A DNA stretch of 64,000 bases, taken from positions 11,297 to 75,296 of the forward strand of contig CBDBDB010000003.1 of the NCBI GenBank assembly GCA_965203495.1, in the 5' to 3' direction. Shown here piece after piece: positions 17,423-32,692 of this stretch. The DNA is from Candidatus Multivorans sp. (lineage in GTDB: Bacteria; Acidobacteriota; Thermoanaerobaculia; Multivoradales; Multivoraceae). Below the pieces are notes generated by a model. The model was not told the origin of the DNA, did not search any database, and saw only the letters and a list, made by a program, of their open reading frames with translations. Both the position numbers and the translations under genes were made by a program. Within the stretch, counting starts at the first letter, position 1; each line of letters begins with the position of its first letter.

Positions 17423-18133
17423 TCATCCGCGCACCAGAACGCGCTCCCCGAGCGGCTGAACCGGCCGACGGTTGTTCGGGTAGGTCGCCGCGAAGGCCTC
17501 GATCTGGGCGGCGGACAGCGTGAGCGGTTCCGTCAGGACGATCCAGGCCACGCCCTCCGTGCACGGCGGCGTGGTCAGCGATCCCCGGTACCGCCAGGAG
17601 GTCCGCGGCGCCGGCAACAGGGCCGGCAGATCGACCGCGTCCGGGATGGCGCGCGGCGGATCGGCAGCGGCCGGAAAGCTCGACCACACGGTCGCCAGCG
17701 CCGGGTTCGGGGGACCCTCGCGGAACAGGACGCCGACGACCAGCAGCGAGCTGGCGGCGCTCCGATGCACGAAGTGCATCTCGAGCGGCAGGCGGACGCC
17801 CGCGATCGTGTGCTCGGCGCCGTGGTGGAAGTGGAACTGCTCCAACTCGAACCGCACGCCCGCGACGACGATCCGGTTGCCGGGTTCCGGGTTCACCTGG
17901 ATCGAGTGCCCCGTGTTCTCGACCGTCGACCGGGAAGACCGGTACCTGAACTCGACCGGGTCGACCCGTGCCTCGCGTGCGTCGATCAGATCGATCGGAG
18001 ACTGTTCGCCGCCCAGCGAACACGTCTGGTAGGCAGGGTCGAGACGTCCCCAGACGGCGGGGCCGTCGTGCTCATCGTAGCCCCACTCCGCTCCGTCGGC
18101 AGGTTCGCGCATCGGCGCGGGACGATAACCCAT
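17423..18133 (-). CDS. Alpha-class carbonic anhydrase (no signal peptide)
   Basis: WGYDEHDGPAVWG...SPIDL...QFHFHHGAEHTIAGVRLPLEMHFVH...GSLTTPPCTEGVAWIV carries the alpha-CA zinc-ligand and active-site motifs. Confidence 0.9.
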   Translation of the reverse strand: MGYRPAPMREPADGAEWGYDEHDGPAVWGRLDPAYQTCSLGGEQSPIDLIDAREARVDPVEFRYRSSRSTVENTGHSIQVNPEPGNRIVVAGVRFELEQFHFHHGAEHTIAGVRLPLEMHFVHRSAASSLLVVGVLFREGPPNPALATVWSSFPAAADPPRAIPDAVDLPALLPAPRTSWRYRGSLTTPPCTEGVAWIVLTEPLTLSAAQIEAFAATYPNNRRPVQPLGERVLVRG

Positions 18134-18138
18134 GCGGG

Positions 18139-19551
18139 CTATTCGTCCGCGGGCTCTCCCGCGTGCTCCTGCGCCGCTCTCGCGGCCTCCATGTCGTCTT
18201 CATCCGGCATCAGGATGAACTCGGGGTAGGACTCGATGCCGAGTTCGGCCATGTCCTGACCGAGTTCCTCGACCTCCGGCGACACGCGAACGCCGATCGT
18301 CTTGCCGAGCGCCCACCACAGCAGCATCGACAGCCCGAACACGAAGGCCCCGACAGACAGGATGCCGACGATCTGATGCACGAGGTTGCCGCCGGCCGCG
18401 ATGCAGACGGCGAGCGTTCCCCAGATGCCGGCGAACAGGTGGACCGGAACGGCGCCCACGACATCGTCCAGCTTCATCCGCTCGAGCAGCTTCATGCCGG
18501 CGACGGTGACGACGCCGCCTATCGCGCCGATCAGGAGCGCCCAGTGGTGGCCGACCAGGTCAGGCCCGGCGGTGACGCCGACCAGCCCCCCAAGCGCGCC
18601 GTTCAGAACCGCCAGCAGGTCCACGCGACCCAGCAACGGCCGCGAGACAACCAACGCCGCGACGACGCCCGCGGCGGCGGCGAGGTTCGTGTTGACCAGC
18701 AGGTTGCTCATCGCCGTCGCGTCGGCTGCGCCGCCGAGCGCGAGCTGAGAACCGCCGTTGAAGCCGAACCAGCCCATCCACAGGATGAAGACGCCCAGAG
18801 TGACGATCGGGACGTTCGAAGGCGGAGTGACCTTGACGCCGCCGTCGGAGCGGAACTTGCCGCGCCTCGCGCCAACCGTGATGATCCCCGCCAGGGCAGC
18901 CCAGCCGCCCGTCGAATGGACGATGGTGGAGCCGGCGAAATCCTGGAAGCCCAGCTCGGCAAGCCAACCGCCGCCCCAGGTCCAGGCGCCGACGATCGGA
19001 TAGATCACCGCGGTCAGTGCGCCAGTGAAGATGAGGAAGGACCAGAGCTTGACGCGCTCGGCGAGAGCTCCCGACACGATCGAGGCCGTGGTGGCCACGA
19101 AGGTCATCTGGAAGAACCAGCTCGACATCTCGGAATACCCGCTCCCGATGACCGCGGCCGCCTTGTCCGCGTCGCCGCCGAGCAGGGCCATCTCGTCCGC
19201 GGACGCTTCGAACAGCGGCGTGACCGACCCGATCCAGGCGCCCACATCGACGTACATCAGGTTGTAGCCGATGACGTAGTAGGCGATGCCGGCGATCGAG
19301 TAGAGCCCGATGTTCTTCATGCAGATGACGGAGGCGTTCTTCGTCCGCACCGAACCGGCCTCGAGCATCGTGAAGCCGGCGCACATCCACATGATGAACG
19401 CGCCCCAGACCAGGAAGGCGTACGTACTGAAGACGTAGGCGACGTCTCCGGACACCTGGGCGCCGGCGGCGGCCGCGACGAGAAGCAGCACGGCGCCGGC
19501 GAGAACGGCCTTGAGAACGAACGGTCGGAAGGTCAGGGATTGCGCGTTCAT
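18139..19551 (-). CDS. amt: Ammonium transporter (Amt family)
   Basis: About 470 aa with 11 TM helices. Amt signature blocks (FLVWGAFIMWMCAGFTMLEAGSVRTKN..., DFAGSTIVHSTGGWAALAG). The track ORF starts at 19587; MNAQSL at 19551 is more likely. Confidence 0.9.
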   Translation of the reverse strand: MNAQSLTFRPFVLKAVLAGAVLLLVAAAAGAQVSGDVAYVFSTYAFLVWGAFIMWMCAGFTMLEAGSVRTKNASVICMKNIGLYSIAGIAYYVIGYNLMYVDVGAWIGSVTPLFEASADEMALLGGDADKAAAVIGSGYSEMSSWFFQMTFVATTASIVSGALAERVKLWSFLIFTGALTAVIYPIVGAWTWGGGWLAELGFQDFAGSTIVHSTGGWAALAGIITVGARRGKFRSDGGVKVTPPSNVPIVTLGVFILWMGWFGFNGGSQLALGGAADATAMSNLLVNTNLAAAAGVVAALVVSRPLLGRVDLLAVLNGALGGLVGVTAGPDLVGHHWALLIGAIGGVVTVAGMKLLERMKLDDVVGAVPVHLFAGIWGTLAVCIAAGGNLVHQIVGILSVGAFVFGLSMLLWWALGKTIGVRVSPEVEELGQDMAELGIESYPEFILMPDEDDMEAARAAQEHAGEPADE

Positions 19552-19759
19552 CGGTTCCCCCCTCAGGGCAGCCGCCTCCTCCGCCACGCACGGAGCTCCT
19601 CCACTGCCCGGCCACGGACATCCGTCAATCGGAGGCCGTGAACACTATAGCGGCACGCCGGGCACGCTGCTCGATCCGGCCTCGATCCGGCGAAGAACCG
19701 TCGCCTTCCATTGCCCATCCCGAGTCGATCGCAGCGCTTGAACGTCATACGATCGCCTC

Positions 19760-23451: not shown

Positions 23452-24255
23452 CTAGAAGTCGAAGAAGTCGTCCTCGCCGCCGGTGAGGTAGGACGCCTCC
23501 TCGTCGAGCCAAGCCTGGAACTCTTCCTCGGTATGCACCGTCAGGAAGCCGCGCATCGAGTAGTGACTGTTGCCGCAGAGCTGAGCGCAGGCAATCTCGT
23601 AGACGTAGTCCGGATTGCCGGTCTCCTCTCGGATCCGGGCAGTCGTCTTGGTTGGCACGAACCAGACGGGAATCGAGAGCCCGGGGATGGCGTCCTGCTT
23701 GATCCGCATGTTCGGCAGGTTGAAGCTGTGGATCACGTCCTTGGACGACAGGTGGATGATCGCCGCCTTGTCGACCGGCAGGTGCAACTGGTTCACGGTC
23801 CAGATGTCGTCCGCGCCGGCTGGATCGTCGCGGTCGAGGCCGATCGGATTGGTCGCTTCGTCGACCAGGGAGACGTCCGCGGCGCCGAACTCCCCGTCGG
23901 CGCCCGGGTACCAGACGTTCCAGGCGAACTGCTGCGCGACGACGCGCACGACCGTCGCCTCCGATTCCGGCGGCGCCTCGTCGACGCGCTCCGCCCACAT
24001 CGGGATGGAGAACCCGAGCAGGAGCACGCCCTCGACGATTGCCACGGCGACCTCCCCGTAGGTGCTCGCCTTGCTCTTGACGCCGACGTAATCCGCCTTC
24101 GGGTTGCGCCTGGCCCGGAAGCGCATCAGCACGTACACGAAGAACGCGCCCCAGACGATGAAGAGCGCGAACATCAGGTAGTGCACCACGTCGATCATGT
24201 TGTCGATCCGACCGGCGTGCTCCGACGCCGCGGCAGGGAACATGGAATCCATCAT
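23452..24255 (-). CDS. ctaC: Cytochrome c oxidase subunit II (CuA subunit; no fused cytochrome c domain)
   Basis: Two N-terminal TM helices, then a cupredoxin domain with CuA ligands (IHSFNLPNM ... CAQLCGNSHYSM). Its ATG overlaps the upstream ORF stop (ATGA). Confidence 0.9.
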   Translation of the reverse strand: MMDSMFPAAASEHAGRIDNMIDVVHYLMFALFIVWGAFFVYVLMRFRARRNPKADYVGVKSKASTYGEVAVAIVEGVLLLGFSIPMWAERVDEAPPESEATVVRVVAQQFAWNVWYPGADGEFGAADVSLVDEATNPIGLDRDDPAGADDIWTVNQLHLPVDKAAIIHLSSKDVIHSFNLPNMRIKQDAIPGLSIPVWFVPTKTTARIREETGNPDYVYEIACAQLCGNSHYSMRGFLTVHTEEEFQAWLDEEASYLTGGEDDFFDF

Positions 24256-24761
24256 GACTTGACAGGCTCCTCGACGGTGCTCCACCAGGGCGGCACCGGG
24301 TCGGTACGGAGGCGCCGCGCCCGACGCCGGAGACAGAGAAAGAAGAGAACCAGAGCGGCCTGCATCAGAAAGACCGAGCCGAGGAGAACCCAGGCGCCGG
24401 CGCGGGCGGCGTCGAGCATTCCGCCGCCGCCGCCGAAGAAACCGCCCCCGACGCCCTCGTCGCCCAGACCGCCGTAGCACGCCCTGCAGGCCCAGGCCGC
24501 GGGTTCGGATAAAAGGAGCCAGGCCGCCGCGACAACGGGAATCGTGCGAAACAGCTTCCGCCGCCTGGCCCACTCCTCCTCGGGAGTCGTGATCTTGCGC
24601 CAGAACCAGACGCCATACCCCACGAGCGCCGCGGCGACGACGAACGACAGCAGCGCCCCGATCCGGTACCCGACGCCCTGCGCCAGGCACCAGCCGCCGA
24701 AGAACAGCGCGAGGAGAACGGCGCTGCCGACGAAGACGATGTGGATGACCTTCAGGTTCAT
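24252..24761 (-). CDS. Hypothetical 4-TM membrane protein with CRAC motif, encoded between oxidase subunits IV and II
   Basis: MNLKVIHIVFVGSAVLLALFFGGWCLAQG... with four hydrophobic segments, CRACYGG and a Gly-rich loop. Start/stop overlaps indicate translational coupling with ctaF and ctaC. No recognisable family. Confidence 0.5.
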   Translation of the reverse strand: MNLKVIHIVFVGSAVLLALFFGGWCLAQGVGYRIGALLSFVVAAALVGYGVWFWRKITTPEEEWARRRKLFRTIPVVAAAWLLLSEPAAWACRACYGGLGDEGVGGGFFGGGGGMLDAARAGAWVLLGSVFLMQAALVLFFLCLRRRARRLRTDPVPPWWSTVEEPVKS

Positions 24762-25162: not shown

Positions 25163-25762
25163 CTACAGGAGGTAGAAGACGGGAAAGAGGAAGATCCAGA
25201 CCAGGTCGACGAAGTGCCAGAAGAGGCCGGAGTGCTCGACCCGGTCGGTCAGCCACTGCCGGTTCGTGTGGAACAGCTTCGACCCGGGCCCGGCGAAGTA
25301 GGCGTTCCAGGCCATGCCGCCGATCACGTGCAGGGCGTGGAGGCCGGTCATCGCGAAGTAGATGGCGAGGAACGTGCTCGACTCCGGATAGTGATGGTGA
25401 TCGAACTTAGCCATGTACTCGAAGTACTTGATGACCAGGAAGACGCCGCCACAGCCGACGGTCGCCCAGCCGTAGGCCCGAAAGCGGTTCAGCTTCCCGC
25501 GCATCAGCGACGCCCAGGCCATGACCATCGTCAGACTGGAGCCGATCAGCACCACCGTGTTGAGCGTCGCCAGCGGAATGTTCAGTTCCGCTTCGGCCTG
25601 CATTGCCGCCCAGGCGCCGTCCGATCCCAGGCGCAGCATGATGAACGTGGCGAACAGCGCTCCGAACAGCATGACCTCCGAGGTCAGAAACAGCCAGATG
25701 CCGATCTTGCCGTTGTTTAGGCCGGTCTCGGGGTGGGCCTCTACCGTGTAGGGAATGTCCAT
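25163..25762 (-). CDS. ctaE: Cytochrome c oxidase subunit III
   Basis: GIWLFLTSEVMLFGALFATF... and HHHYPESSTFLAIYFAMTGLHALHVIGG are the COX3 family signature. Confidence 0.9.
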   Translation of the reverse strand: MDIPYTVEAHPETGLNNGKIGIWLFLTSEVMLFGALFATFIMLRLGSDGAWAAMQAEAELNIPLATLNTVVLIGSSLTMVMAWASLMRGKLNRFRAYGWATVGCGGVFLVIKYFEYMAKFDHHHYPESSTFLAIYFAMTGLHALHVIGGMAWNAYFAGPGSKLFHTNRQWLTDRVEHSGLFWHFVDLVWIFLFPVFYLL

Positions 25763-25783: not shown

Positions 25784-27541
25784 TCAGGTTGAAGCCGGTT
25801 CGGCCTGTGGGACGTAGTCCCTGTCGCTGCCCGGAACGCTGTACTCGTACGGTCCGCGCACGACCTCGATCTCCTGGTCGAAGTTCCCGTGCGGCGCCGG
25901 CGACGGCGCCAGCCACTCGACCGTGGTCGAGTTCCAGGGGTTGCGGCCGGCCTTCTCGCCGTTCCGGATGCTCATGAAGAAGTTGACGATGAACGGAATC
26001 TGGGCCAGCGCCAGGCACCAGGCCGAAACCGACATCATGCGGTTCAGTCCAGCCACGTTGCCCGCGAAGTCGTAGGTGACGCCGCCGTCGGCAAGACGCC
26101 GCGAGACGCCGTTCAGGCCCTGAATCAGCATCGGGAAGAAGACGCCGTTCATGAAGACGAAGGAGGGCCAGAAGTGGAGCTTGCCCAGGAACTCGTTCAT
26201 CTTCCGTCCCGTCACCTTGGGGAACCAGTAATAGATGCCGGCGAACAGCGCGAACAGGGTGCCGGGCGCCACGACGTAGTGGAAGTGGCCGATCACGTAG
26301 TACGTGTCGTGGAGCGGGATGTCCGCCGCGGCAAGTCCCAGCGGCAGTCCGGTCAGCCCGCCGATGCCGAACATCGGCAGAAAGCCGAGCGCGAACAGCA
26401 TCGGCGTGTTGTAGCGGATGGAACCGCCCCAGAGCGAGATGAACAGGGCGCTCAGGATGATGACCGAGGGGATGGAGATGATCATCGTCGTCGTCTGGAA
26501 GAAGGTGGACATCACCGAGCCCATGCCCGTGATGAACATGTGGTGCGCCCAGACGATGAAACTCATGAAGCCGAGGAAGATCAGGGAGTACACCATCGAG
26601 CGGTAGCCCCAGAGCGGCTTGCGGGAGTTGTTCGCGATCACCTCGGCGACGATACCCATCGCCGGCAGGATGAGCACGTAGACCTCCGGGTGGGCCAGGA
26701 ACCAGAACAGGTGCTGCCAGAGCAGCGGACTGCCGCCTCCGCTCCGATCAAGCGCCTCGCCGCCGACCACCAGCCCGTCCGGTATGAAGAAGCTGGTGTT
26801 CGCCACGCGATCCATCAACTGCAGCACGCCCGCGGCCTCGAGCGGCGGAAAGGCGAGCAGCAGGAGGAAAGCGGTCACGATCTGCGCCCAGCAGAAGAAC
26901 GGCAGGCGCATCCAGGTCATGCCGGGCGCGCGGAGCTGGATCGCCGTGGTGATGAAGTTGATCGCGCCCAGCAGGGACGACGTGATCAGGAAGATCATCC
27001 CGATCAACCAGGCGGTCTGACCGTTCAGCGCGAGGTCGGCCAGCGGCGAGTACGAGGTCCAGCCGTTGCCCGCGGCGCCGTTCGGCAGGAAGAAGCTGGC
27101 GAACATGGTCACGCCGCCCAGGAACAGGCACCAGTAGCTCAGCATGTTGAGCCGCGGGAAGGCCATGTCCGGGGCGCCGAGCTGAAGCGGCATGACGAAG
27201 TTGCCGAAACCGCCGACCGCCAGCGGCACGACGCCCAGAAACACCATGATCGTCCCGTGCATGGCGCCGAGCTCGTTGTAGAAGTCCGGCAGCATGATGC
27301 CGCCGGGCGCCCGGTTCTCGCCGAAGAGCGAGCCGATCAGGGGAATCGGTTCGCCCGGATAGGCCAGCTGCCAACGCATCACCATCATCAGGGCGAACCC
27401 GAACAGAAGGAACGCGAGGCCGGTGACCGAGTACTGGACGCCGATCACCTTGTGATCGGTCGAGAAGACGCACTTCCTCCAGAAGCTCTGCTCGTGATGA
27501 TGCTCGTCGCGTGCGGGTGACGCGTGAACGGGCTCCGCCAT
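25784..27541 (-). CDS. ctaD: Cytochrome c oxidase subunit I (haem-copper oxidase catalytic subunit)
   Basis: 585 aa with 12+ TM helices. WFFGHPEVY-type blocks (LFWFLAHPEVYVLILPAMGIVAEVI), haem/CuB His ligands and the GMHGTIMVF... motif. Confidence 0.95.
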   Translation of the reverse strand: MAEPVHASPARDEHHHEQSFWRKCVFSTDHKVIGVQYSVTGLAFLLFGFALMMVMRWQLAYPGEPIPLIGSLFGENRAPGGIMLPDFYNELGAMHGTIMVFLGVVPLAVGGFGNFVMPLQLGAPDMAFPRLNMLSYWCLFLGGVTMFASFFLPNGAAGNGWTSYSPLADLALNGQTAWLIGMIFLITSSLLGAINFITTAIQLRAPGMTWMRLPFFCWAQIVTAFLLLLAFPPLEAAGVLQLMDRVANTSFFIPDGLVVGGEALDRSGGGSPLLWQHLFWFLAHPEVYVLILPAMGIVAEVIANNSRKPLWGYRSMVYSLIFLGFMSFIVWAHHMFITGMGSVMSTFFQTTTMIISIPSVIILSALFISLWGGSIRYNTPMLFALGFLPMFGIGGLTGLPLGLAAADIPLHDTYYVIGHFHYVVAPGTLFALFAGIYYWFPKVTGRKMNEFLGKLHFWPSFVFMNGVFFPMLIQGLNGVSRRLADGGVTYDFAGNVAGLNRMMSVSAWCLALAQIPFIVNFFMSIRNGEKAGRNPWNSTTVEWLAPSPAPHGNFDQEIEVVRGPYEYSVPGSDRDYVPQAEPAST

Positions 27542-27583: not shown

Positions 27584-28300
27584 CTACTCCGGCTTGAAGA
27601 CGAAGTTCGCCGTCACGACGCCGTCGTCGCTGACCTCGACGGTCTCGGACTGGATCCTGAACCTCTCGAACTCGTGCCGCGCCTCGATCGTGTAAACGCC
27701 GGCCGGCACGTTCTCGATGCGGAAGGAACCGTCGGCGCCCGACACGGCGTAGAACGGATGATCGACGACGGTCACCCAGGAGGTCATCCAGGGATGAACG
27801 TCGCACTTGATCCGGAAGCGCTCCGTCTTCTCGAAGCTGTAGTCGGCCTCGGTCACGCTGGCCGGCATCGCCCGGTTGAACGGGGGGTTGTCCTTGGACA
27901 GCGAGTGGACGTTGTGCAGCAGGCCGTCCGAGTTCTTCACCTTGAACTGCTGGCCGACCTGGACGCCCATGATGCGCGGCGTGTAGATGCAGCCGTTCTG
28001 ATCCATGACCACGGGCTGCGAAGGCGCATCGAAGGACTTCCCTTCCAGGCCCTCGGTGATCGCCAGAAAGACGTTGGCGAAGGCGCCGTCATCCCCGACC
28101 ACGAAGGTCTGGTCGAGGACCGTGCCGCTGTGCTTCGCGGCACACTTGGGATCCGCGTCCATCCTCATTGGACGTTGCGGAGGCGTCCGGCCCTCGTACG
28201 TGACCTTGCCGACAATCGTGCCGCCGAAGGCAACCGGGGAGGAAGCCAGGGCGAGGGCGAGAAGAACGGCACAGACGCGGATCGTCCGCTTCGGAATCAT
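27584..28300 (-). CDS. Exported cupredoxin-like (type-1 copper motif) protein with CarboxypepD_reg-like beta-sandwich flanks (P1)
   Basis: AAGGAG Shine-Dalgarno 8 nt upstream of the ATG at 28300, and a signal peptide (MIPKRTIRVCAVLLALALASSPVAFG). Plastocyanin/pseudoazurin-like block VGQQFKVKNSDGLLHNVHSL ... KCDVHPWM (His ... Cys-x2-His-x2-Met). C-terminal GADGSFRIENVPAGVYTIEA. There is a paralogue at 31901..32692. Confidence 0.7.
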   Translation of the reverse strand: MIPKRTIRVCAVLLALALASSPVAFGGTIVGKVTYEGRTPPQRPMRMDADPKCAAKHSGTVLDQTFVVGDDGAFANVFLAITEGLEGKSFDAPSQPVVMDQNGCIYTPRIMGVQVGQQFKVKNSDGLLHNVHSLSKDNPPFNRAMPASVTEADYSFEKTERFRIKCDVHPWMTSWVTVVDHPFYAVSGADGSFRIENVPAGVYTIEARHEFERFRIQSETVEVSDDGVVTANFVFKPE

Positions 28301-28421
28301 GTCGATGCTCCTTGACTTGGAGTGGTGTCCGGGTTCACGAGGCGCGACCGGCAGAGTAGCAGGGACGACGGCTTGTAACAAGAACGGATCGCTGGCGCGG
28401 CGGCGCGGGTCCGGCGCCTCT

Positions 28422-29657
28422 TCAGACGTTCTCGAACGCCAGGGATTCGACGAGCCGCGGGTCCCGGGACGGCGCCAGCGGGCCGCGGCTCAGCAACCAG
28501 ACCGCGGTCGCCAGGAACAGGCCGCCGACGCCGAGCAGGCAGGTCAGGTCGAGAAGGCTGAACGTCATCTCCCGATGCAGGTTCGGCATGACCAGCCAGA
28601 ACACGTCCCACAGATGCATGGCCAGCATCCAGACGGCGCCGATCAGCAGGAAGGCGCGGTTGCGCTTGATCGTTCGCGGCATGAGGAAGAAGAACGGGAC
28701 GGCGAAGTGGCCGACGGCCAGCAGCACGGTCGCCGCGCGCCAGTTCGCCGGGTTGTTCGCCGTGCCGTGCAGCCGGCTCAGGAACCAGTTGGTCTCCTCC
28801 GGGATGTTCGCGTACCAGATCAGGAAGAACTGGCTGAAGGCGATGTACGCCCAGAACACGGTGAAGGCGAACAGCAGCTTGCCGAGATCGTGGAAATGCT
28901 CGCCGGTGACCACGCCCCGGAAGTGGCCGGACCGCTCGAACGCCAGCGTGAAGACGATGAGCGCGGCAAACGCCGAAACGACCGTGCCGGCGAAGAAGTA
29001 GACGCCGAACATGGTCGAGTACCAGTGCGGCTCCAGCGACATCAGCCAGTCGAAACCGGCAAACGTCAGCGTCACCGCGAGGAGGGCGATCGCAACGGGG
29101 CTGAATCGCGCCATTCGGCGGGAAAGGGCTTCGTCTCCGCTCTCGTCCTGCCGCCGCGACGCGCTGCGGTAGTAGAGCGCCAGCCCGCTCCAGACCACGA
29201 AGTAGATGACCGCCCGAATCCAGAAGCCGGTCTCGTTGAGCCACGGTTCCTTGACCTGCAGCAATCGGTCATGCGCTACCGCGTCGGCGTGGGTCCAGTG
29301 GAACAGGTCGTACATGCCCAGGGCGACGACGGGAACGAACAGGACCGCCAGCGCCGGCGCCGTGCAGGCCAGGTTCTCGGCCAGGCGGCGCACCACGACG
29401 CCCCAGCCCGCCTTCGTCGCGTGGTGAATCAGCACGAAGAACAGACAGCCGAGACCAATGCCGAGAAAGTAGACGACGGCCACGAGCCAGGAGTGGAAGA
29501 ACTGCTTCGCGCTCTCCGCCGATCCCATCGCCAGAACGACCGACGCGGCCGTGAAGACCAGGCCGACCGTTCCCGCGATCAACGGCAGGCGCGACCAGCC
29601 GCCGCCCGGTCGGATGACCAGCTGATCGAGATGAACGGTGCGCGGTCCGTGGGCCAT
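28422..29657 (-). CDS. actF: Alternative complex III subunit ActF-like (second NrfD-family polytopic membrane subunit)
   Basis: About 410 aa with 10 TM helices. Its ATG overlaps the actD stop by 1 nt. It is similar in topology and motifs to actC and is the third gene of the actC-actD-actF series. Confidence 0.8.
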   Translation of the reverse strand: MAHGPRTVHLDQLVIRPGGGWSRLPLIAGTVGLVFTAASVVLAMGSAESAKQFFHSWLVAVVYFLGIGLGCLFFVLIHHATKAGWGVVVRRLAENLACTAPALAVLFVPVVALGMYDLFHWTHADAVAHDRLLQVKEPWLNETGFWIRAVIYFVVWSGLALYYRSASRRQDESGDEALSRRMARFSPVAIALLAVTLTFAGFDWLMSLEPHWYSTMFGVYFFAGTVVSAFAALIVFTLAFERSGHFRGVVTGEHFHDLGKLLFAFTVFWAYIAFSQFFLIWYANIPEETNWFLSRLHGTANNPANWRAATVLLAVGHFAVPFFFLMPRTIKRNRAFLLIGAVWMLAMHLWDVFWLVMPNLHREMTFSLLDLTCLLGVGGLFLATAVWLLSRGPLAPSRDPRLVESLAFENV

Positions 29658-30265
29658 CAGACGGCGCCTCCCGCGTCGCCGTCTTCCGCCGGGTCGTCGA
29701 TCGGCACGTGCTCCACTTCGACCGCGCCAAGTCCGCTCAGGAACTCGGCGGTGGCCCGGTCGTCGTACTTCGCGTCCCAGGCTTCGATCGCGATGAACAG
29801 ACCGTCGTCCGTGACCCGCGCGAAGTTCTTCGACCGGAACAGCGGATGGTGGTAGGTCGGCAGCTTGTTGAAGGCGAACATGCCGAGCACCGCTCCCAGC
29901 GCCGCGCCGAGCACGCCGAGCTCGAAGGTGACCGGCACGAAGGCTGGCCAGGTGAACAGAGGCTTGCCGCTGATGATCAGCGGATAGGCCTGGACGTGAA
30001 CCCAGCTCTGCAGGGCGAAGCCCAGCCCGGCGCCGGAAAGTCCCGTCGCCAGCACGAGGAAGGGCAACCTGGACGGCTTCAGCCCCATCGCCTTCTCGAG
30101 ACCGTGCACCGGGAACGGCGTCAGCGCGTCCCACTTCGAGTAGCCGGCGTCACGGACCGCCTCGCACGCTCGATAGAGCGCCTTGGCCGTCTCGAAGCGA
30201 GCCAGGACGCCGTAGTGGCGGTAGCCCGCCGACGCTTCCGGCACGTCCAGGGTCATCAGGCCCAT
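29657..30265 (-). CDS. actD: Alternative complex III subunit ActD-like (DUF3341 membrane protein)
   Basis: 202 aa. Cytoplasmic N-terminal part (YGVLARFETAKALYRACEAVRDAGYSKWDALTPFPVHGLEKAMG) followed by 2 TM helices. It sits between two NrfD-like genes with 1-nt spacing. Confidence 0.75.
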   Translation of the reverse strand: MGLMTLDVPEASAGYRHYGVLARFETAKALYRACEAVRDAGYSKWDALTPFPVHGLEKAMGLKPSRLPFLVLATGLSGAGLGFALQSWVHVQAYPLIISGKPLFTWPAFVPVTFELGVLGAALGAVLGMFAFNKLPTYHHPLFRSKNFARVTDDGLFIAIEAWDAKYDDRATAEFLSGLGAVEVEHVPIDDPAEDGDAGGAV

Positions 30266-30266
30266 G

Positions 30267-31727
30267 TCACGCGCCTCCCGCGCCGGCCGTCGCCGGCCGC
30301 GCCGCGGCCGTCGCTCCGGCCCCGGCGGCCGCGACCCGCACGAGTTCCTCGCCCTGGTGCGGATCGGCCTCCGGCAGCACGGTCTTGACCTCCGCCGTCG
30401 CCACCAGCGGCAGGAAGCGGGCGAACAGGCAGAACATCGTGAAGAACAGGCCGAAGCTGCCGATCAGCGAGGCGAAGTCCCAGAAGGTCGCCTGGTAGTA
30501 GTCCCAGCTCGCCGGCAGGAAGTCCCGGTGCAGCGACGACGCGACGATGACGAAACGCTCGAACCACATGCCGATGTTGATCAGGATCGAGGAGACGAAC
30601 AGCCAGCCGATGTGGTTGCGCATCTTCTTGAACCAGAACAGTTGCGGCGTGAGCACGTTGCAGCTGACCATGATCCAGTAGGCCCAGGCGTAGGGGCCGA
30701 GGGCCCGGTTGGCGAAGGCGAACTGCTCGTAGGGGTTGCCGCTGTACCAGGCGATGAACATCTCGATGCCGTAGGCGTAGCCGACCATGCACCCCGTCAG
30801 CAGCATGATCTTGGCCATGTTCTCGAGATGGCGCATCGTGATGATGTCCTCCATCCTGAACAGGACCCGGCAGATCAGCATCAGGGTCACGACCATGGCG
30901 AAGCCGGAGAAGATGGCGCCGGCGACGAAGTAGGGCGGGAAGATCGTCGTGTGCCAGCCCGGCAGCTGGGCGGTCGCGAAGTCCATCGACACGACGGAGT
31001 GGACGGAGAGGACGAGGGGAGTCGCCAGTCCGGCCAGCATCAGGTAGGCCCGCTCGTAGTGCAGCCAGTTCCGGTGAGAACCGCGCCAGCCGAGAGCGAA
31101 GACGCCGTAGACGATCCGCCGGATCCGCGTCCGGGCGCGGTCGCGAATCGTCGCGAGGTCCGGAATCAGGCCGACGTACCAGAACATCAGGGACACCGTG
31201 CCGTAGATCGACACCGCGAACACGTCCCAGATCAACGGACTGCGGAAGTTCGGCCACATGTCCATCTGGTTCGGCAGCGGGAACATCCAGTAGGCGACCC
31301 ACACGCGGCCGACGTGGATGCCGGGAAACACCAGGGCGCACATGACCGCGAAGATCGTCATCGCCTCCGCGGCGCGGTTGATCGAGGTGCGCCACTTCTG
31401 CCGGAACAGGAAGAGGATCGCGGAGATCAACGTGCCGGCGTGGCCGATGCCGACCCAGAAGACGAAGTTGACGATCGCGAAGCCCCAGTTGACCGGATTG
31501 TTCAGGCCCCAGATGCCGGTGCCCTCCCAGAACAGCCAGGCGATCGAAACGCCGAACAGGCCCAGCAGCGCCAGCGACGGCAGGAAGAAGAACCACCAGC
31601 CGATCGGCGTCCCGCGCTCGACCGGCGCCGCGACCGCTTCCGTCAGGGAGCGGAAGTCGTAGCCGCCTACGATCAGCGGCGCGCGGCCGGCGACCGGTTC
31701 CTGGGTGTTGTCCTGACTCTGTGCCAT
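30267..31727 (-). CDS. actC: Alternative complex III subunit ActC-like (NrfD/PsrC-family quinol-interacting membrane subunit)
   Basis: 486 aa. [56 protein letters not shown] matches the ActC/NrfD signature block. Confidence 0.85.
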
Positions 31728-31900: not shown

Positions 31901-32692
31901 ATGACCTGTCCACCGACTTCCTCGTCCCGCCGGATTCTCGCGGCGGTTCCCGCCCTGGCCTTCCTCTCGCTCGCCGCGTGCGGCGACGCCGCGTCCGAGG
32001 GCGCTGGCGGCCATGCCGCGGAAGCGACCGAAGCGCCGCCCGCCGAACCCCTGGGCAGGAGCGCCATCGCCGGCGTCGTTCGCTTCGACGGCGAGGCGCC
32101 GAAGCTCCGTCCGCTCGACATGGGCGCCGACCCCGCCTGCGCCGCCAAGCACGCGGAACCGGCATACCCCGAGTTCCTCGCGGTCGACGACCAGGCCGGC
32201 CTGGCCAACGTCCTCGTCTACGTCGCCGACAACGTTCCGCAGGGCCCCTACCCGCCGGCCGAGCCGCCCGTGATCGACCAGAAGGGCTGTCGGTACACGC
32301 CCCGCGTCGCCGGCATCATGGTGGGCCAGGAGCTCCGGGTGCTGAATTCGGACGACCTCCTCCACAACGTCCACTCCCTTTCCGAGATCAACTGTCCCTT
32401 CAACCGGGCGATGCCCGCCGCGATCAAGGAGGCCTCCTTCTCGTTCACCGACGCGGAACCCGCCTTCCGGATCAAGTGCGACGTGCACCCCTGGATGTCG
32501 AGCTACCTCGCCGTCTTCGGCCATCCCTTCTTCGCCGTCACCGGACCGGACGGCGCCTTCGAGATCCCCGGGCTGCCCGCCGGCACCTACACGATCGAAG
32601 CCTGGCACGAACGCCTGGGCAGCCAGCGCGCCGGCGTCACGCTCCTCGACGGACTGGCCGCGACGGTCGATCTCGCGTTCACCCTTCCGTAA
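31901..32692 (+). CDS. Cupredoxin-like (type-1 copper motif) lipoprotein, paralogue of P1 (P2)
   Basis: Lipobox LSLAAC, then the same conserved blocks as P1: DMGADPACAAKH, VLNSDDLLHNVHSLS, NRAMPA, FRIKCDVHPWM and HPFFAVTGPDGAFEIPGLPAGTYTIEAWHE. It is transcribed divergently from actC across a 173-bp spacer. Confidence 0.7.
   Translation: MTCPPTSSSRRILAAVPALAFLSLAACGDAASEGAGGHAAEATEAPPAEPLGRSAIAGVVRFDGEAPKLRPLDMGADPACAAKHAEPAYPEFLAVDDQAGLANVLVYVADNVPQGPYPPAEPPVIDQKGCRYTPRVAGIMVGQELRVLNSDDLLHNVHSLSEINCPFNRAMPAAIKEASFSFTDAEPAFRIKCDVHPWMSSYLAVFGHPFFAVTGPDGAFEIPGLPAGTYTIEAWHERLGSQRAGVTLLDGLAATVDLAFTLP

What the first reader, a model, noticed from the sequence alone, without database searches (positions are those of the whole stretch)
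27584..28300. Cupredoxin-like protein with a type-1 copper ligand set sits exactly where actE would be, just upstream of ctaD
P1 has a strong Shine-Dalgarno site (AAGGAG, 8 nt before the ATG) and a signal peptide. Its core (VGQQFKVKNSDGLLHNVHSL ... FRIKCDVHPWM) reproduces the plastocyanin/pseudoazurin/amicyanin pattern: the V-x-N-x-D...HNV first His, and Cys-x2-His-x2-Met about 38 residues later. CarboxypepD_reg-like beta-strand motifs flank it (TIVGKVTYEG; GADGSFRIENVPAGVYTIEA). It is the only soluble redox-type protein in an operon that lacks actE and whose ctaC has no fused cytochrome c domain. That makes it a candidate blue-copper shuttle between the Act module and CuA of the oxidase. Cupredoxin fused to or inserted into a transthyretin-like sandwich in this context looks uncharacterised.
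Basis: partly seen in the sequence, partly recalled or inferred. Interest (0 to 1): 0.65.

Follow-up and report, generated by a model that had tools for sequence, protein, structure and literature searches.

The report
Oxidase-linked blue-copper protein, nested fold
This gene most likely encodes a periplasmic blue-copper electron carrier that feeds a cytochrome oxidase lacking the usual built-in cytochrome c domain; the family is common in several poorly studied bacterial phyla, and I found no paper describing it.

Summary
The gene is real.

- **Fold:** AlphaFold2 gives a confident model (pLDDT 93). Its core matches amicyanin, plastocyanin and pseudoazurin, and a profile alignment places the four residues on amicyanin's four copper ligands.
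- **Ligand conservation:** the quartet is kept in 122/122 close homologues and in 131/138 domains from diverse cluster representatives.
- **Architecture:** the cupredoxin is inserted inside a CarboxypepD_reg-like beta-sandwich.
- **Partner:** P1 goes with the oxidase, not with ActE. In 79 genome loci from many phyla, 60 copies sit directly upstream of COX1-COX3-COX4-X-COX2. Only 30 of those have ActC-ActD-ActF upstream. Others have a Rieske/cytochrome b/octahaem complex or nothing.
- **COX2:** none of about 60 linked COX2 genes carries a haem-c motif.
- **Fusions:** natural fusions join the P1 module to COX4, COX2 or multihaem cytochromes.

My reading is a trans-encoded copper counterpart of the cytochrome c domain of caa3 oxidases. 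It is a new variant of a known kind. The local Act genes also lack actA and actB, which remains unexplained.

The parts
27584..28300 (-). P1 gene: 238-aa periplasmic two-domain copper protein (stop codon 27584-27586)
   Evidence: Translation; GC3 0.87; 1638 homologues with E<=1e-3; AlphaFold2 mean pLDDT 93.2
28308..28313 (-). Shine-Dalgarno AAGGAG, 7 nt before the ATG
   Evidence: Read directly from the sequence
28223..28300 (-). Signal peptide, residues 1-26. Inferred cleavage after AFG, so a soluble periplasmic protein
   Evidence: Sequence inspection; helix 4-19 in the model; no signal-peptide predictor was available
28181..28222 (-). Beta-sandwich strand A (residues 27-40, GTIVGKVTYEGRTP)
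   Evidence: Strand 27-35 in the model; splice test gives a full-length PF13620 match at 44.0 bits
28088..28180 (-). Inserted loop, residues 41-71, carrying near-invariant Cys53. Cys53 probably forms a disulfide with Cys104 (inferred)
   Evidence: Cys53 in 133/138 and Cys104 in 134/138 domains; both invariant in close homologues
28052..28087 (-). Beta-sandwich strand B (residues 72-83, GAFANVFLAITE)
   Evidence: Strand 77-83; splice test
27761..28021 (-). Cupredoxin domain, residues 94-180, eight strands
   Evidence: Foldseek versus PDB: amicyanin, plastocyanin, pseudoazurin and 5fc9, TM-score on target 0.67-0.76, probability 1.00; hhalign versus amicyanin covers residues 94-178, E=2.2e-6; phmmer versus 5fc9_A E=0.0027
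27914..27916 (-). His129 codon, predicted first copper ligand
   Evidence: Aligns to amicyanin His53; His in 134/138 domains
27785..27805 (-). Ligand loop Cys166-Asp-Val-His169-Pro-Trp-Met172 (C-x2-H-x2-M, amicyanin spacing)
   Evidence: Aligns to amicyanin Cys92/His95/Met98; Cys 136/138, His 137/138, Met 131/138
27587..27760 (-). C-terminal part of the CarboxypepD_reg-like beta-sandwich, residues 181-238
   Evidence: PF13620 match at 176-234; strands 184-235
31901..32692 (+). P1 paralogue, 263 aa, 45% identical. Has a lipobox (LSLAAC), a linker and the same ligand motifs. Divergent from actC
   Evidence: the same divergent position is conserved in 11 related loci
30267..31727 (-). ActC (NrfD-like quinol-binding subunit)
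   Evidence: PF03916; E=5.5e-203 to R. marinus ActC 6f0k_C, with the quinol-site His/Ser/Asp/Asp conserved (residue list from PMC8076601)
29657..30265 (-). ActD
   Evidence: PF11821, E=4.3e-63
28422..29657 (-). ActF
   Evidence: E=3.5e-86 to R. marinus ActF 6f0k_F
25784..27541 (-). COX1 (CtaD), A-type, with the HPEVY motif
   Evidence: PF00115; TIGR02891; motif read
25163..25762 (-). COX3
   Evidence: PF00510
24781..25110 (-). COX4, caa3-type subunit IV
   Evidence: PF03626; TIGR02229 at 49.2 bits, above the 37.25 cutoff
24252..24737 (-). Conserved 161-aa membrane protein X with a CxxC motif (ACRACYGG). No known family
   Evidence: No Pfam or NCBIfam hit; present at the same place in related operons
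23452..24252 (-). COX2 (CtaC) with CuA site CAQLCGNSHYSM and no cytochrome c domain
   Evidence: PF00116; TIGR02866; alignment to P. denitrificans subunit II

Best explanation
P1 is most likely a secreted type-1 (blue) copper protein. It would act as the dedicated electron-entry partner of the aa3-type cytochrome oxidase encoded immediately downstream. In effect it would be a separately encoded copper counterpart of the cytochrome c domain that caa3 oxidases carry fused to subunit II.

Proposed mechanism:
1. The signal peptide takes P1 to the periplasm (inferred).
2. The eight-stranded cupredoxin domain (residues 94-180) binds one copper through His129, Cys166, His169 and Met172. Fold and ligand alignment are shown in silico. 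Copper binding itself is inferred.
3. The CarboxypepD_reg-like beta-sandwich, into which the cupredoxin is inserted, serves as a docking or spacer domain (inferred).
4. Reduced Cu(I) passes one electron at a time to CuA of COX2. This is inferred from synteny and fusions.
5. The electron source is whichever quinol-oxidising system the organism has. In some phyla that is a Rieske/cytochrome b complex with an octahaem cytochrome c encoded just upstream. Here it is presumably an alternative complex III whose membrane subunits ActC/D/F are encoded upstream. This step is the least certain.

The lipoprotein paralogue next to actC may be the donor-side member of a two-cupredoxin relay (speculative).
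For: Fold and site:
- AlphaFold2 mean pLDDT 93.2, pTM 0.85.
- Top solved-structure matches are amicyanin, plastocyanin, pseudoazurin and the N. maritimus purple cupredoxin, with probability 1.00 and TM-score on target 0.67-0.76.
- hhalign versus amicyanin gives E=2.2e-6 and places His129/Cys166/His169/Met172 on His53/Cys92/His95/Met98.
- The ligands sit at the canonical positions: start of strand 4, end of strand 7, and the loop between strands 7 and 8.
- The HCHM quartet is kept in 122/122 close homologues and 131/138 domains from 50%-identity cluster representatives.

Oxidase link:
- In 79 species-level genome loci from Acidobacteriota, Omnitrophota, Marinimicrobia, Latescibacterota, Planctomycetota, Verrucomicrobiota, Calditrichia, Binatia and Gemmatimonas, 60 P1 copies lie within 1 kb upstream of COX1 or COX2 on the same strand.
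- 0 of about 60 linked COX2 have CxxCH, and all but one have the CuA motif.
- COX4 is of the caa3 type.
- The P1-cox unit also occurs without any Act genes.
- Off-operon copies sit beside haem A synthesis genes: CtaA by Pfam; CtaA/CtaB-like ORFs by my reading of N-terminal sequences, no family search run.

Fusions:
- COX4_pro::P1 occurs in three separate 50%-identity clusters. One has 19 members on 13 or more contigs in Ca. Poribacteria.
- COX2-linker-P1 and P1-linker-COX2 both occur, with the type-1 and CuA motifs intact.
- Multihaem cytochrome c::P1 fusions occur.

Donor side:
- Rieske, cytochrome b and an octahaem cytochrome c lie directly upstream of P1 in Planctomycetota and Omnitrophota loci.

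Precedents:
- Auracyanin as the electron acceptor of alternative complex III (PMC10873879).
- AcoP, a cupredoxin encoded in the A. ferrooxidans rus operon (operon placement from my own knowledge) and studied with that respiratory chain's cytochromes (PMC4059628, PMC5982212).
Against: - There is no experimental evidence for copper binding or for any redox partner.
- Pfam Copper-bind and NCBIfam amicyanin score below their cutoffs: 15.8 versus 21.2 bits and 13.6 versus 110.2 bits.
- The two COX2 fusions are single sequences from short contigs and could be assembly or gene-calling artefacts.
- About a fifth of family loci show no cox genes within 10 kb.
- The loci were picked with ligand-containing peptide patterns. 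They therefore say nothing independent about ligand conservation.
- A soluble cytochrome c encoded elsewhere could be the true donor.
- The Trp that I recall (my own knowledge) as the electron entry point in P. denitrificans COX2 (W121) aligns to Phe here, so docking may differ from known models.
Confidence: 0.65

Rival explanations
1. P1 and its paralogue are the only redox partners of an ActC/D/F membrane module. Together with the oxidase they form a quinol oxidase with no haem c and no iron-sulfur clusters. Type-1 copper would take electrons directly from the quinol site of ActC and pass them to CuA.
For: - ActC/D/F without actA, actB or actE is conserved next to P1-cox in 30 loci across phyla.
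- ActC keeps all four quinol-site residues.
- No CxxCH or iron-sulfur ORF lies in the operon, and no ActA- or ActB-like ORF lies anywhere in the 64-kb window.
- In this clade a second cupredoxin sits next to actC.
Against: - The window ActC is very close to canonical R. marinus ActC (678 bits, versus 533-556 bits for the other solved ActC chains), which I take to argue for a conventional ActA/ActB-binding surface.
- Three loci (L011, L041, L044) carry an ActA-like pentahaem gene on the opposite strand beside the operon. In L044, Pfam and tblastn confirm ActA, ActB and a second ActC.
- P1-cox occurs without Act genes. In one locus P1 is separated from actF by an opposite-strand gene.
- No fusion of P1 to an Act subunit was seen.
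- No NrfD-type complex in the published survey lacks an iron-sulfur partner (PMC8076601).
Confidence: 0.12
2. P1 is a functional replacement of ActE, that is, a subunit of alternative complex III rather than of the oxidase.
For: - The operon lacks a monohaem ActE, and P1 is encoded right after actF.
- A blue copper protein, auracyanin, works with alternative complex III in Chloroflexi (PMC10873879).
Against: - The gene position is after actF, not between actD and actF.
- Of the 60 cox-adjacent P1 copies, 30 lack ActF directly upstream (24 with no Act or octahaem genes, 3 with an octahaem gene, 3 with too little upstream DNA).
- Fusions are to COX4, COX2 or multihaem cytochromes.
- ActE itself is dispensable for electron transfer to aa3 in F. 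johnsoniae (PMC8552683, title).
Confidence: 0.1
3. P1 is a copper chaperone or assembly factor for the CuA or CuB site of the adjacent oxidase, not an electron carrier.
For: - It is encoded inside a cox operon. In other genomes it sits near haem A synthesis genes: CtaA by Pfam; CtaA/CtaB-like ORFs by my reading of N-terminal sequences only.
- Cupredoxin-like folds are used by the PCuAC chaperones (own knowledge).
- P1 has extra conserved His and Met residues outside the type-1 set: His57, His181, His209, Met47.
Against: - P1 has no PCuAC motif (H(M)x10Mx21HxM) and no Sco CxxxC motif.
- The ligand set and spacing are those of amicyanin, an electron carrier.
- Permanent fusions to mature oxidase subunits and to multihaem cytochromes fit a relay better than a transient chaperone.
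Confidence: 0.1
4. P1 is a non-redox structural or accessory periplasmic protein whose copper-like motif is vestigial.
For: A few divergent or tandem-domain relatives have lost ligands, showing quartets such as HCHE, HCHV or YCHV.
Against: 95% of diverse domains keep all four ligands. The surrounding motif (NSDxxxHN ... KCDVHPWM) is among the most conserved parts of the protein.
Confidence: 0.03

Closest known systems
Amicyanin (Paracoccus; PDB 1aaj, 2gb2)
   Same: Cupredoxin fold, the PHNVH-type first His, and the identical short Cys-x2-His-x2-Met ligand loop. Among the best structural matches, and the profile alignment puts ligand on ligand.
   Different: Amicyanin is a single domain of about 105 aa that serves methylamine dehydrogenase. 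P1 scores far below the amicyanin equivalog cutoff (13.6 versus 110.2 bits), is nested in a second domain, and is linked to an oxidase.
Cytochrome c domain of caa3-type oxidase subunit II
   Same: Proposed role: a built-in one-electron entry module for CuA. The linked oxidase has a caa3-type subunit IV. A COX2-linker-P1 fusion mimics the caa3 COX2-linker-cytochrome c layout.
   Different: The cofactor is copper rather than haem c, and the fold is unrelated. In this window the module is encoded as a separate secreted protein.
Auracyanin (Chloroflexus/Roseiflexus)
   Same: A blue copper protein described as the periplasmic electron acceptor of alternative complex III (PMC10873879). Many P1 relatives are lipid-anchored with a flexible linker; I recall auracyanin as membrane-tethered too (own knowledge).
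   Different: From my own knowledge, auracyanin is a single-domain protein that is not encoded in a cox operon and mainly serves the photosynthetic reaction centre. It has no beta-sandwich host domain.
AcoP and rusticyanin (Acidithiobacillus ferrooxidans rus operon); sulfocyanin and halocyanin in archaea
   Same: Cupredoxins encoded with, or physically associated with, terminal haem-copper oxidases as part of the electron path to oxygen (PMC4059628, PMC5982212, PMC10804444). The sulfocyanin and halocyanin comparison rests on my own knowledge.
   Different: These have different sequence families and ligand-loop lengths, and are single-domain. They occur in acidophile or archaeal settings. None has the CarboxypepD_reg insertion architecture or the Act or octahaem neighbourhood.
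ActE (monohaem subunit of alternative complex III)
   Same: A small periplasmic one-electron carrier at the exit of alternative complex III, encoded next to the Act membrane subunits.
   Different: ActE is a c-type cytochrome with CxxCH, encoded between actD and actF. P1 has no CxxCH, follows actF, and travels with cox genes rather than Act genes.
Purple cupredoxin Nmar_1307 of Nitrosopumilus maritimus (PDB 5fc9)
   Same: Best solved-structure sequence match. Shares HN(I/V) and C-x2-HPW (E=0.0027, TM-score on target 0.68).
   Different: A single domain of 95 aa. The position of P1's axial Met172 is not Met in 5fc9 (alignment). Its genomic context was not examined.

Membership tests
Type-1 (blue) copper cupredoxins | Eight-stranded Greek-key beta-sandwich (cupredoxin fold) | tested here: met
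   AlphaFold2 pLDDT 93.2 with eight strands in residues 97-179. Foldseek probability 1.00 and TM-score on target 0.67-0.76 to amicyanin, plastocyanin and pseudoazurin.
Type-1 (blue) copper cupredoxins | Ligand set His ... Cys-Xn-His-Xm-Met at the canonical positions | tested here: met
   His129/Cys166/His169/Met172 align to amicyanin His53/Cys92/His95/Met98. Conserved in 122/122 and 131/138 sequences.
Type-1 (blue) copper cupredoxins | The four ligand side chains converge on one site in three dimensions | not testable with these tools
   Model coordinates are not exposed. Only secondary structure and fold matches were available.
Type-1 (blue) copper cupredoxins | Binds one copper, with intense absorbance near 600 nm and small parallel hyperfine splitting in EPR | not testable with these tools
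   Needs protein expression and spectroscopy.
Pfam Copper-bind (PF00127) / NCBIfam amicyanin (TIGR02657) | Profile score at or above the curated cutoff | tested here: not met
   PF00127 gives 15.8 bits against a 21.2 cutoff on the isolated domain. It gives no hit on the whole protein. TIGR02657 gives 13.6 bits against 110.2. P1 is a divergent cupredoxin, not a member of these curated families.
CarboxypepD_reg (PF13620) transthyretin-like beta-sandwich | Profile score at or above the cutoff over the full domain | tested here: inconclusive
   The intact protein scores 28.7 bits, below the 32.3 cutoff, and covers profile positions 19-80 only. With the two inserts removed it scores 44.0 bits over positions 1-80 of 82. 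It is therefore a split member hosting an insertion.
ActE of alternative complex III | Monohaem c-type cytochrome with a CxxCH motif, encoded between actD and actF | tested here: not met
   No CxxCH. The gene follows actF.
Canonical alternative complex III operon (ActABCDEF), as context | Pentahaem ActA and iron-sulfur ActB encoded with ActC/D/F | tested here: not met
   Nothing is encoded upstream of actC on its strand; the divergent paralogue lies there instead. No multihaem or iron-sulfur ORF exists in the 64-kb window. The same holds in related loci. Whether actA and actB lie elsewhere in the genome could not be tested.
PCuAC / Sco copper chaperones | H(M)x10Mx21HxM motif (PCuAC) or CxxxC plus His in a thioredoxin fold (Sco) | tested here: not met
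   Regular-expression search was negative. The fold is cupredoxin plus beta-sandwich.

The most novel reading that the evidence does not exclude
ActC/D/F, the two cupredoxins (P1 and its lipoprotein paralogue) and the aa3 oxidase together form a quinol oxidase supercomplex with no haem c and no iron-sulfur clusters. Type-1 copper would take electrons directly from the ActC quinol site, replacing the six haems and four clusters of ActA, ActB and ActE. This would be a copper-for-iron redesign of alternative complex III, and the first NrfD-type module working without an iron-sulfur partner.
Probability: 0.12. Interest if true: 0.85.

Novelty: new variant of a known kind. Interest (0 to 1): 0.55.

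Why it matters
Blue copper proteins are already known to feed terminal oxidases in a few specialised lineages: acidophiles, haloarchaea, Sulfolobus, cyanobacteria and Chloroflexi.

This family would extend that solution to many abundant but little-cultured phyla, including Acidobacteriota, Omnitrophota, Marinimicrobia, Latescibacterota, Planctomycetota and Poribacteria. At least 590 species-level genomes matched in one scan.

- **A missing donor:** it would name the electron donor for a widespread class of aa3 oxidases whose subunit II lacks a cytochrome c domain.
- **Annotation:** it would improve metabolic annotation of metagenome-assembled genomes. The protein is currently labelled 'carboxypeptidase regulatory-like domain protein', 'plastocyanin' or 'hypothetical'.
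- **Architecture:** a cupredoxin nested inside a transthyretin-like sandwich matched no curated Pfam or NCBIfam family and turned up in none of my literature searches, and it may show how a redox domain is positioned against a membrane complex.
- **An open puzzle:** the finding exposes a conserved ActC/D/F trio that has none of the redox subunits of alternative complex III.

Tried and rejected
- **Family scans of the intact protein.** Pfam and NCBIfam detect only the C-terminal half of the beta-sandwich and give an insignificant amicyanin hit. The cupredoxin became clear only with structure prediction, a profile-profile comparison and the splice test.
- **Over-strict motif.** My first motif screen, H-x-x-H, was too strict. 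The second His (His132) is not universal, with Asn, Arg or Lys in 25 of 138 domains. I replaced the screen with alignment-based counts. His132 is therefore not a ligand.
- **Haem attachment at CAAKH (Cys53-x2-Lys-His57).** Considered and rejected. Lys56 is variable, His57 is present in only 108/138 domains, and Cys53 co-varies with invariant Cys104. A disulfide is more likely.
- **Copper chaperone motifs (PCuAC, Sco).** Absent.
- **Promoter and terminator scan of the operon.** No promoter-like sites and only two weak terminator-like hits, fewer than in shuffled sequence. Uninformative for this GC-rich genome.
- **Literature.** Six full-text searches found no description of this family or of ActC/D/F-only clusters. 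The NrfD survey (PMC8076601) does not mention them. Subscription-only papers were not searchable.
- **actA/actB elsewhere in the genome.** I could not determine this.
Full report
**1. The observation**

The ORF is on the minus strand, 27584-28300, and encodes 238 aa.
- The longest open frame starts at a TTG at 28381. The ATG at 28300 is preferable. It is preceded by AAGGAG with a 7-nt spacer, and homologues are 238-243 aa long.
- GC3 is 0.87, typical of real genes in this 69% GC window.
- The N-terminus looks like a signal peptide and is modelled as a helix.
- COX1 starts 42 nt downstream.
- No operon ORF carries CxxCH.
- COX2 has a CuA motif and no cytochrome c domain.

Three points need correcting.
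- P1 follows actF. It does not sit between actD and actF, where actE normally lies.
- The operon also lacks actA and actB.
- A 45%-identical paralogue lies at 31901-32692 (+), divergent from actC. It has a lipoprotein box and the same copper motifs.

**2. What the protein is**

Direct family scans see little. Pfam finds only a sub-threshold CarboxypepD_reg match at residues 176-234, and NCBIfam gives an insignificant amicyanin hit.

Structure prediction from a 71-sequence alignment gives a confident model, with mean pLDDT 93.2 and pTM 0.85.

Foldseek against the PDB returns cupredoxins: amicyanin and its mutants, plastocyanins, pseudoazurins, the N. maritimus purple cupredoxin 5fc9, and CuA domains. 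Probability is 1.00 and TM-score on the target is 0.67-0.76.

A profile-profile alignment of the family against P. denitrificans amicyanin gives E=2.2e-6. The alignment places His129, Cys166, His169 and Met172 on His53, Cys92, His95 and Met98. The loop spacing C-x2-H-x2-M is that of amicyanin.

In the model, the ligands occupy the canonical positions: the start of strand 4, the end of strand 7, and the loop between strands 7 and 8. I could not measure distances because coordinates are not exposed.

**3. Architecture**

The strands at residues 27-35 and 77-83 combine with residues 184-235 to form the second domain.

As a test, I removed residues 41-71 and 84-180 and scanned the remaining 85 residues.
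- The spliced sequence matches PF13620 from position 1 to 80 of 82 at 44.0 bits, above the 32.3 cutoff.
- The C-terminal piece alone scores 30.5 bits, and the intact protein 28.7 bits.

Cys53 in the loop and Cys104 in the first cupredoxin strand are nearly invariant. They probably form a disulfide (inference).

**4. Conservation**

| Sample | HCHM quartet intact |
|---|---|
| Window P1, its paralogue and the 120 closest homologues (45-93% identity) | 122/122 for His129, Cys166 and His169; Met172 121/122 |
| Domains from representatives of 50%-identity clusters | 131/138 |

- The representatives came from an exhaustive profile search. That search returned 30,973 hits at E<=1e-3, but many are CarboxypepD_reg repeat proteins, so this is not the family size.
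- Most exceptions are second, degenerate copies in tandem-domain proteins.
- His132 and Lys56 are not conserved across the wider family. That rules out His132 as a ligand and CAAKH as a haem motif.

**5. Genomic context here**

The minus-strand gene order is ActC, ActD, ActF, P1, COX1, COX3, COX4, X, COX2.

| Gene | Evidence |
|---|---|
| ActC | PF03916; E=5.5e-203 to R. marinus ActC; quinol-site His/Ser/Asp/Asp conserved |
| ActD | PF11821 |
| ActF | E=3.5e-86 to R. marinus ActF |
| COX1, COX3 | PF00115, PF00510 |
| COX4 | caa3-type subunit IV, above the NCBIfam cutoff |
| X | 161-aa membrane protein with a CxxC motif; no known family |
| COX2 | PF00116; CuA motif |

The list of quinol-site residues comes from PMC8076601.

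**6. Context elsewhere**

One scan of species-representative genomes found 590 or more encoding stretches. I analysed the best 79 loci, which come from at least nine phylum-level groups.

| Arrangement | Count |
|---|---|
| P1 copies within 1 kb upstream of COX1 or COX2, same strand | 60 |
| ... with ActC/D/F directly upstream | 30 |
| ... with no Act or octahaem genes upstream | 24 |
| ... with an octahaem cytochrome c directly upstream | 3 |
| ... with too little upstream DNA to tell | 3 |
| Linked COX2 carrying CxxCH | 0 of about 60 |

- All but one of the linked COX2 genes have the CuA motif.
- Pfam-annotated contigs confirm three layouts. One is a stand-alone P1-COX1-COX3-COX4-X-COX2 unit. 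A second has CtaA divergent from ActC/D/F-P1-cox. In the third, an opposite-strand gene separates actF from P1.
- In Planctomycetota, Omnitrophota and Marinimicrobia, P1 follows genes for a Rieske protein, a split cytochrome b and an octahaem cytochrome c of about 1000 aa.
- Octahaem-adjacent copies form separate sequence clusters. They are often followed by a second copy next to cox, which hints at a two-cupredoxin relay.
- Three ActC/D/F-type loci carry an ActA-like pentahaem gene on the opposite strand. In L044, Pfam and tblastn confirm ActA, ActB and a second ActC.
- Copies away from cox genes still sit beside haem A genes: CtaA by Pfam in one locus, and ORFs that look like CtaA, CtaB and DUF420 by their N-terminal sequences, without a family search, in two others.

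Caveat: these loci were found with the ligand-containing peptides CDVHPWM and DGLLHNVH. They are valid for synteny but not for ligand conservation.

**7. Fusions**

Among cluster representatives, the P1 module is fused to several partners.
- **COX4_pro::P1.** Found in three 50%-identity clusters. One (P0180) has 19 members on 13 or more contigs from Ca. Poribacteria.
- **COX2-linker-P1 (P0175).** The linker is acidic, and the layout copies that of caa3 subunit II.
- **P1-linker-COX2 (P0168).**
- **Multihaem cytochrome c::P1 (P0264, P0266).**

All of these keep CDVHPWM, and the COX2 fusions also keep the CuA motif. The two COX2 fusions are single sequences, so they need confirmation.

About 27% of single-domain members have a lipobox followed by a Pro/Ala/Glu-rich linker, meaning they are membrane-tethered.

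**8. Interpretation**

The simplest account is that P1 is the one-electron entry module of a caa3-like oxidase that has replaced its cytochrome c domain with a separately encoded or tethered blue copper protein.
- Shown in silico: the fold, the ligand set and its conservation, the nesting, the synteny and the fusions.
- Inferred: copper binding, electron transfer to CuA, a docking role for the sandwich, and the identity of the donor.

Rivals:
- **Copper chaperone.** Disfavoured by the ligand chemistry, the missing chaperone motifs and the fusions.
- **ActE replacement.** Disfavoured by gene order, by independence from Act genes and by the fusion partners. ActE is also dispensable in F. johnsoniae (PMC8552683).
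- **Copper-only ActC/D/F-cupredoxin-oxidase quinol oxidase.** This is the most novel reading and cannot be excluded. The high similarity of ActC to canonical ActC, and the adjacent ActA/ActB genes in some genomes, argue for a conventional complex encoded elsewhere.

**9. Comparison with known systems, and novelty**

- In copper-site design P1 resembles amicyanin.
- In role it resembles the caa3 cytochrome c domain, auracyanin, AcoP/rusticyanin, sulfocyanin and halocyanin.
- It fails the curated cutoffs of Pfam Copper-bind and NCBIfam amicyanin, and it is not ActE.
- No curated family or paper describing it was found.

I rate it a new variant of a known kind: a known function class in a new nested architecture. 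It has a broad, previously unrecognised distribution and a clear, testable partner.

Noticed in passing
window 31901-32692 (+): A paralogue of P1: 263 aa, 45% identical, with the same HNVH and CDVHPWM motifs. It differs in having a lipoprotein box (LSLAAC) and a linker of about 35 residues. It is divergently transcribed from actC. The same arrangement is conserved in 11 related genomes.
   Followed up: partly
window 28422-31727 (-); also L008, L011, L016, L019-L021, L080, L084, L085: ActC-ActD-ActF occur without actA, actB or actE across several phyla, always next to P1-cox. ActC is very close to R. marinus ActC (E=5.5e-203) and keeps its quinol-site residues. What these three redox-cofactor-free membrane subunits do on their own is unexplained.
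   Followed up: partly
window 24252-24737 (-): A conserved 161-aa membrane protein with a periplasm-facing CxxC motif (ACRACYGG), encoded between COX4 and COX2. It has no Pfam or NCBIfam family. A gene of 149-161 aa lies at the same place in all annotated related operons. It may be an oxidase subunit or a CuA-assembly thiol protein.
   Followed up: no
window 23452-24252 (-), COX2 residues about 108-117: The conserved motif is QQFAWNVWYP. In P. denitrificans subunit II the corresponding motif is HQWYWSYEYP. The Trp I recall as the cytochrome c electron entry point (W121) aligns to Phe here and in the fused COX2 proteins. This may reflect docking of a cupredoxin instead of cytochrome c.
   Followed up: partly
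L026 3027-8704; L010, L012, L015, L027, L043, L049, L053, L056, L060, L063, L065, L068, L073, L075, L077-L079: In Planctomycetota, Omnitrophota, Marinimicrobia and Latescibacterota, an operon encodes a Rieske protein, a split cytochrome b and a membrane-anchored octahaem cytochrome c of about 1000 aa. It lies directly upstream of a P1 homologue, often followed by a second P1 copy and cox genes.
   Followed up: partly
L044 1186-4973 (-); L011 3031-3765 (-); L041 4758-5549 (-): Three loci have an ActA-like pentahaem gene on the opposite strand beside the ActC/D/F-P1-cox operon. In L044 (Vicinamibacterales), Pfam and tblastn confirm ActA, ActB and a second ActC at 59% identity. At least that genome therefore carries two ActC paralogues.
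   Followed up: partly
window 13201-16152 (-): A 983-aa protein with DUF7133, HEAT repeats and a single C-terminal CxxCH (CSACH). It is a large periplasmic haem protein of unknown role, about 8 kb from the oxidase operon, and could be another electron donor.
   Followed up: no
window 17423-19587 (-): An alpha-type carbonic anhydrase (PF00194) lies immediately downstream of an ammonium transporter (PF00909) on the same strand.
   Followed up: no
P0126, P0135, P0153, P0158, P0227, P0229 (cluster representatives): Tandem two-module versions of the P1 architecture exist. In several, one module has lost ligands (HCHE, HCHV, or no Cys) while the other keeps them.
   Followed up: no
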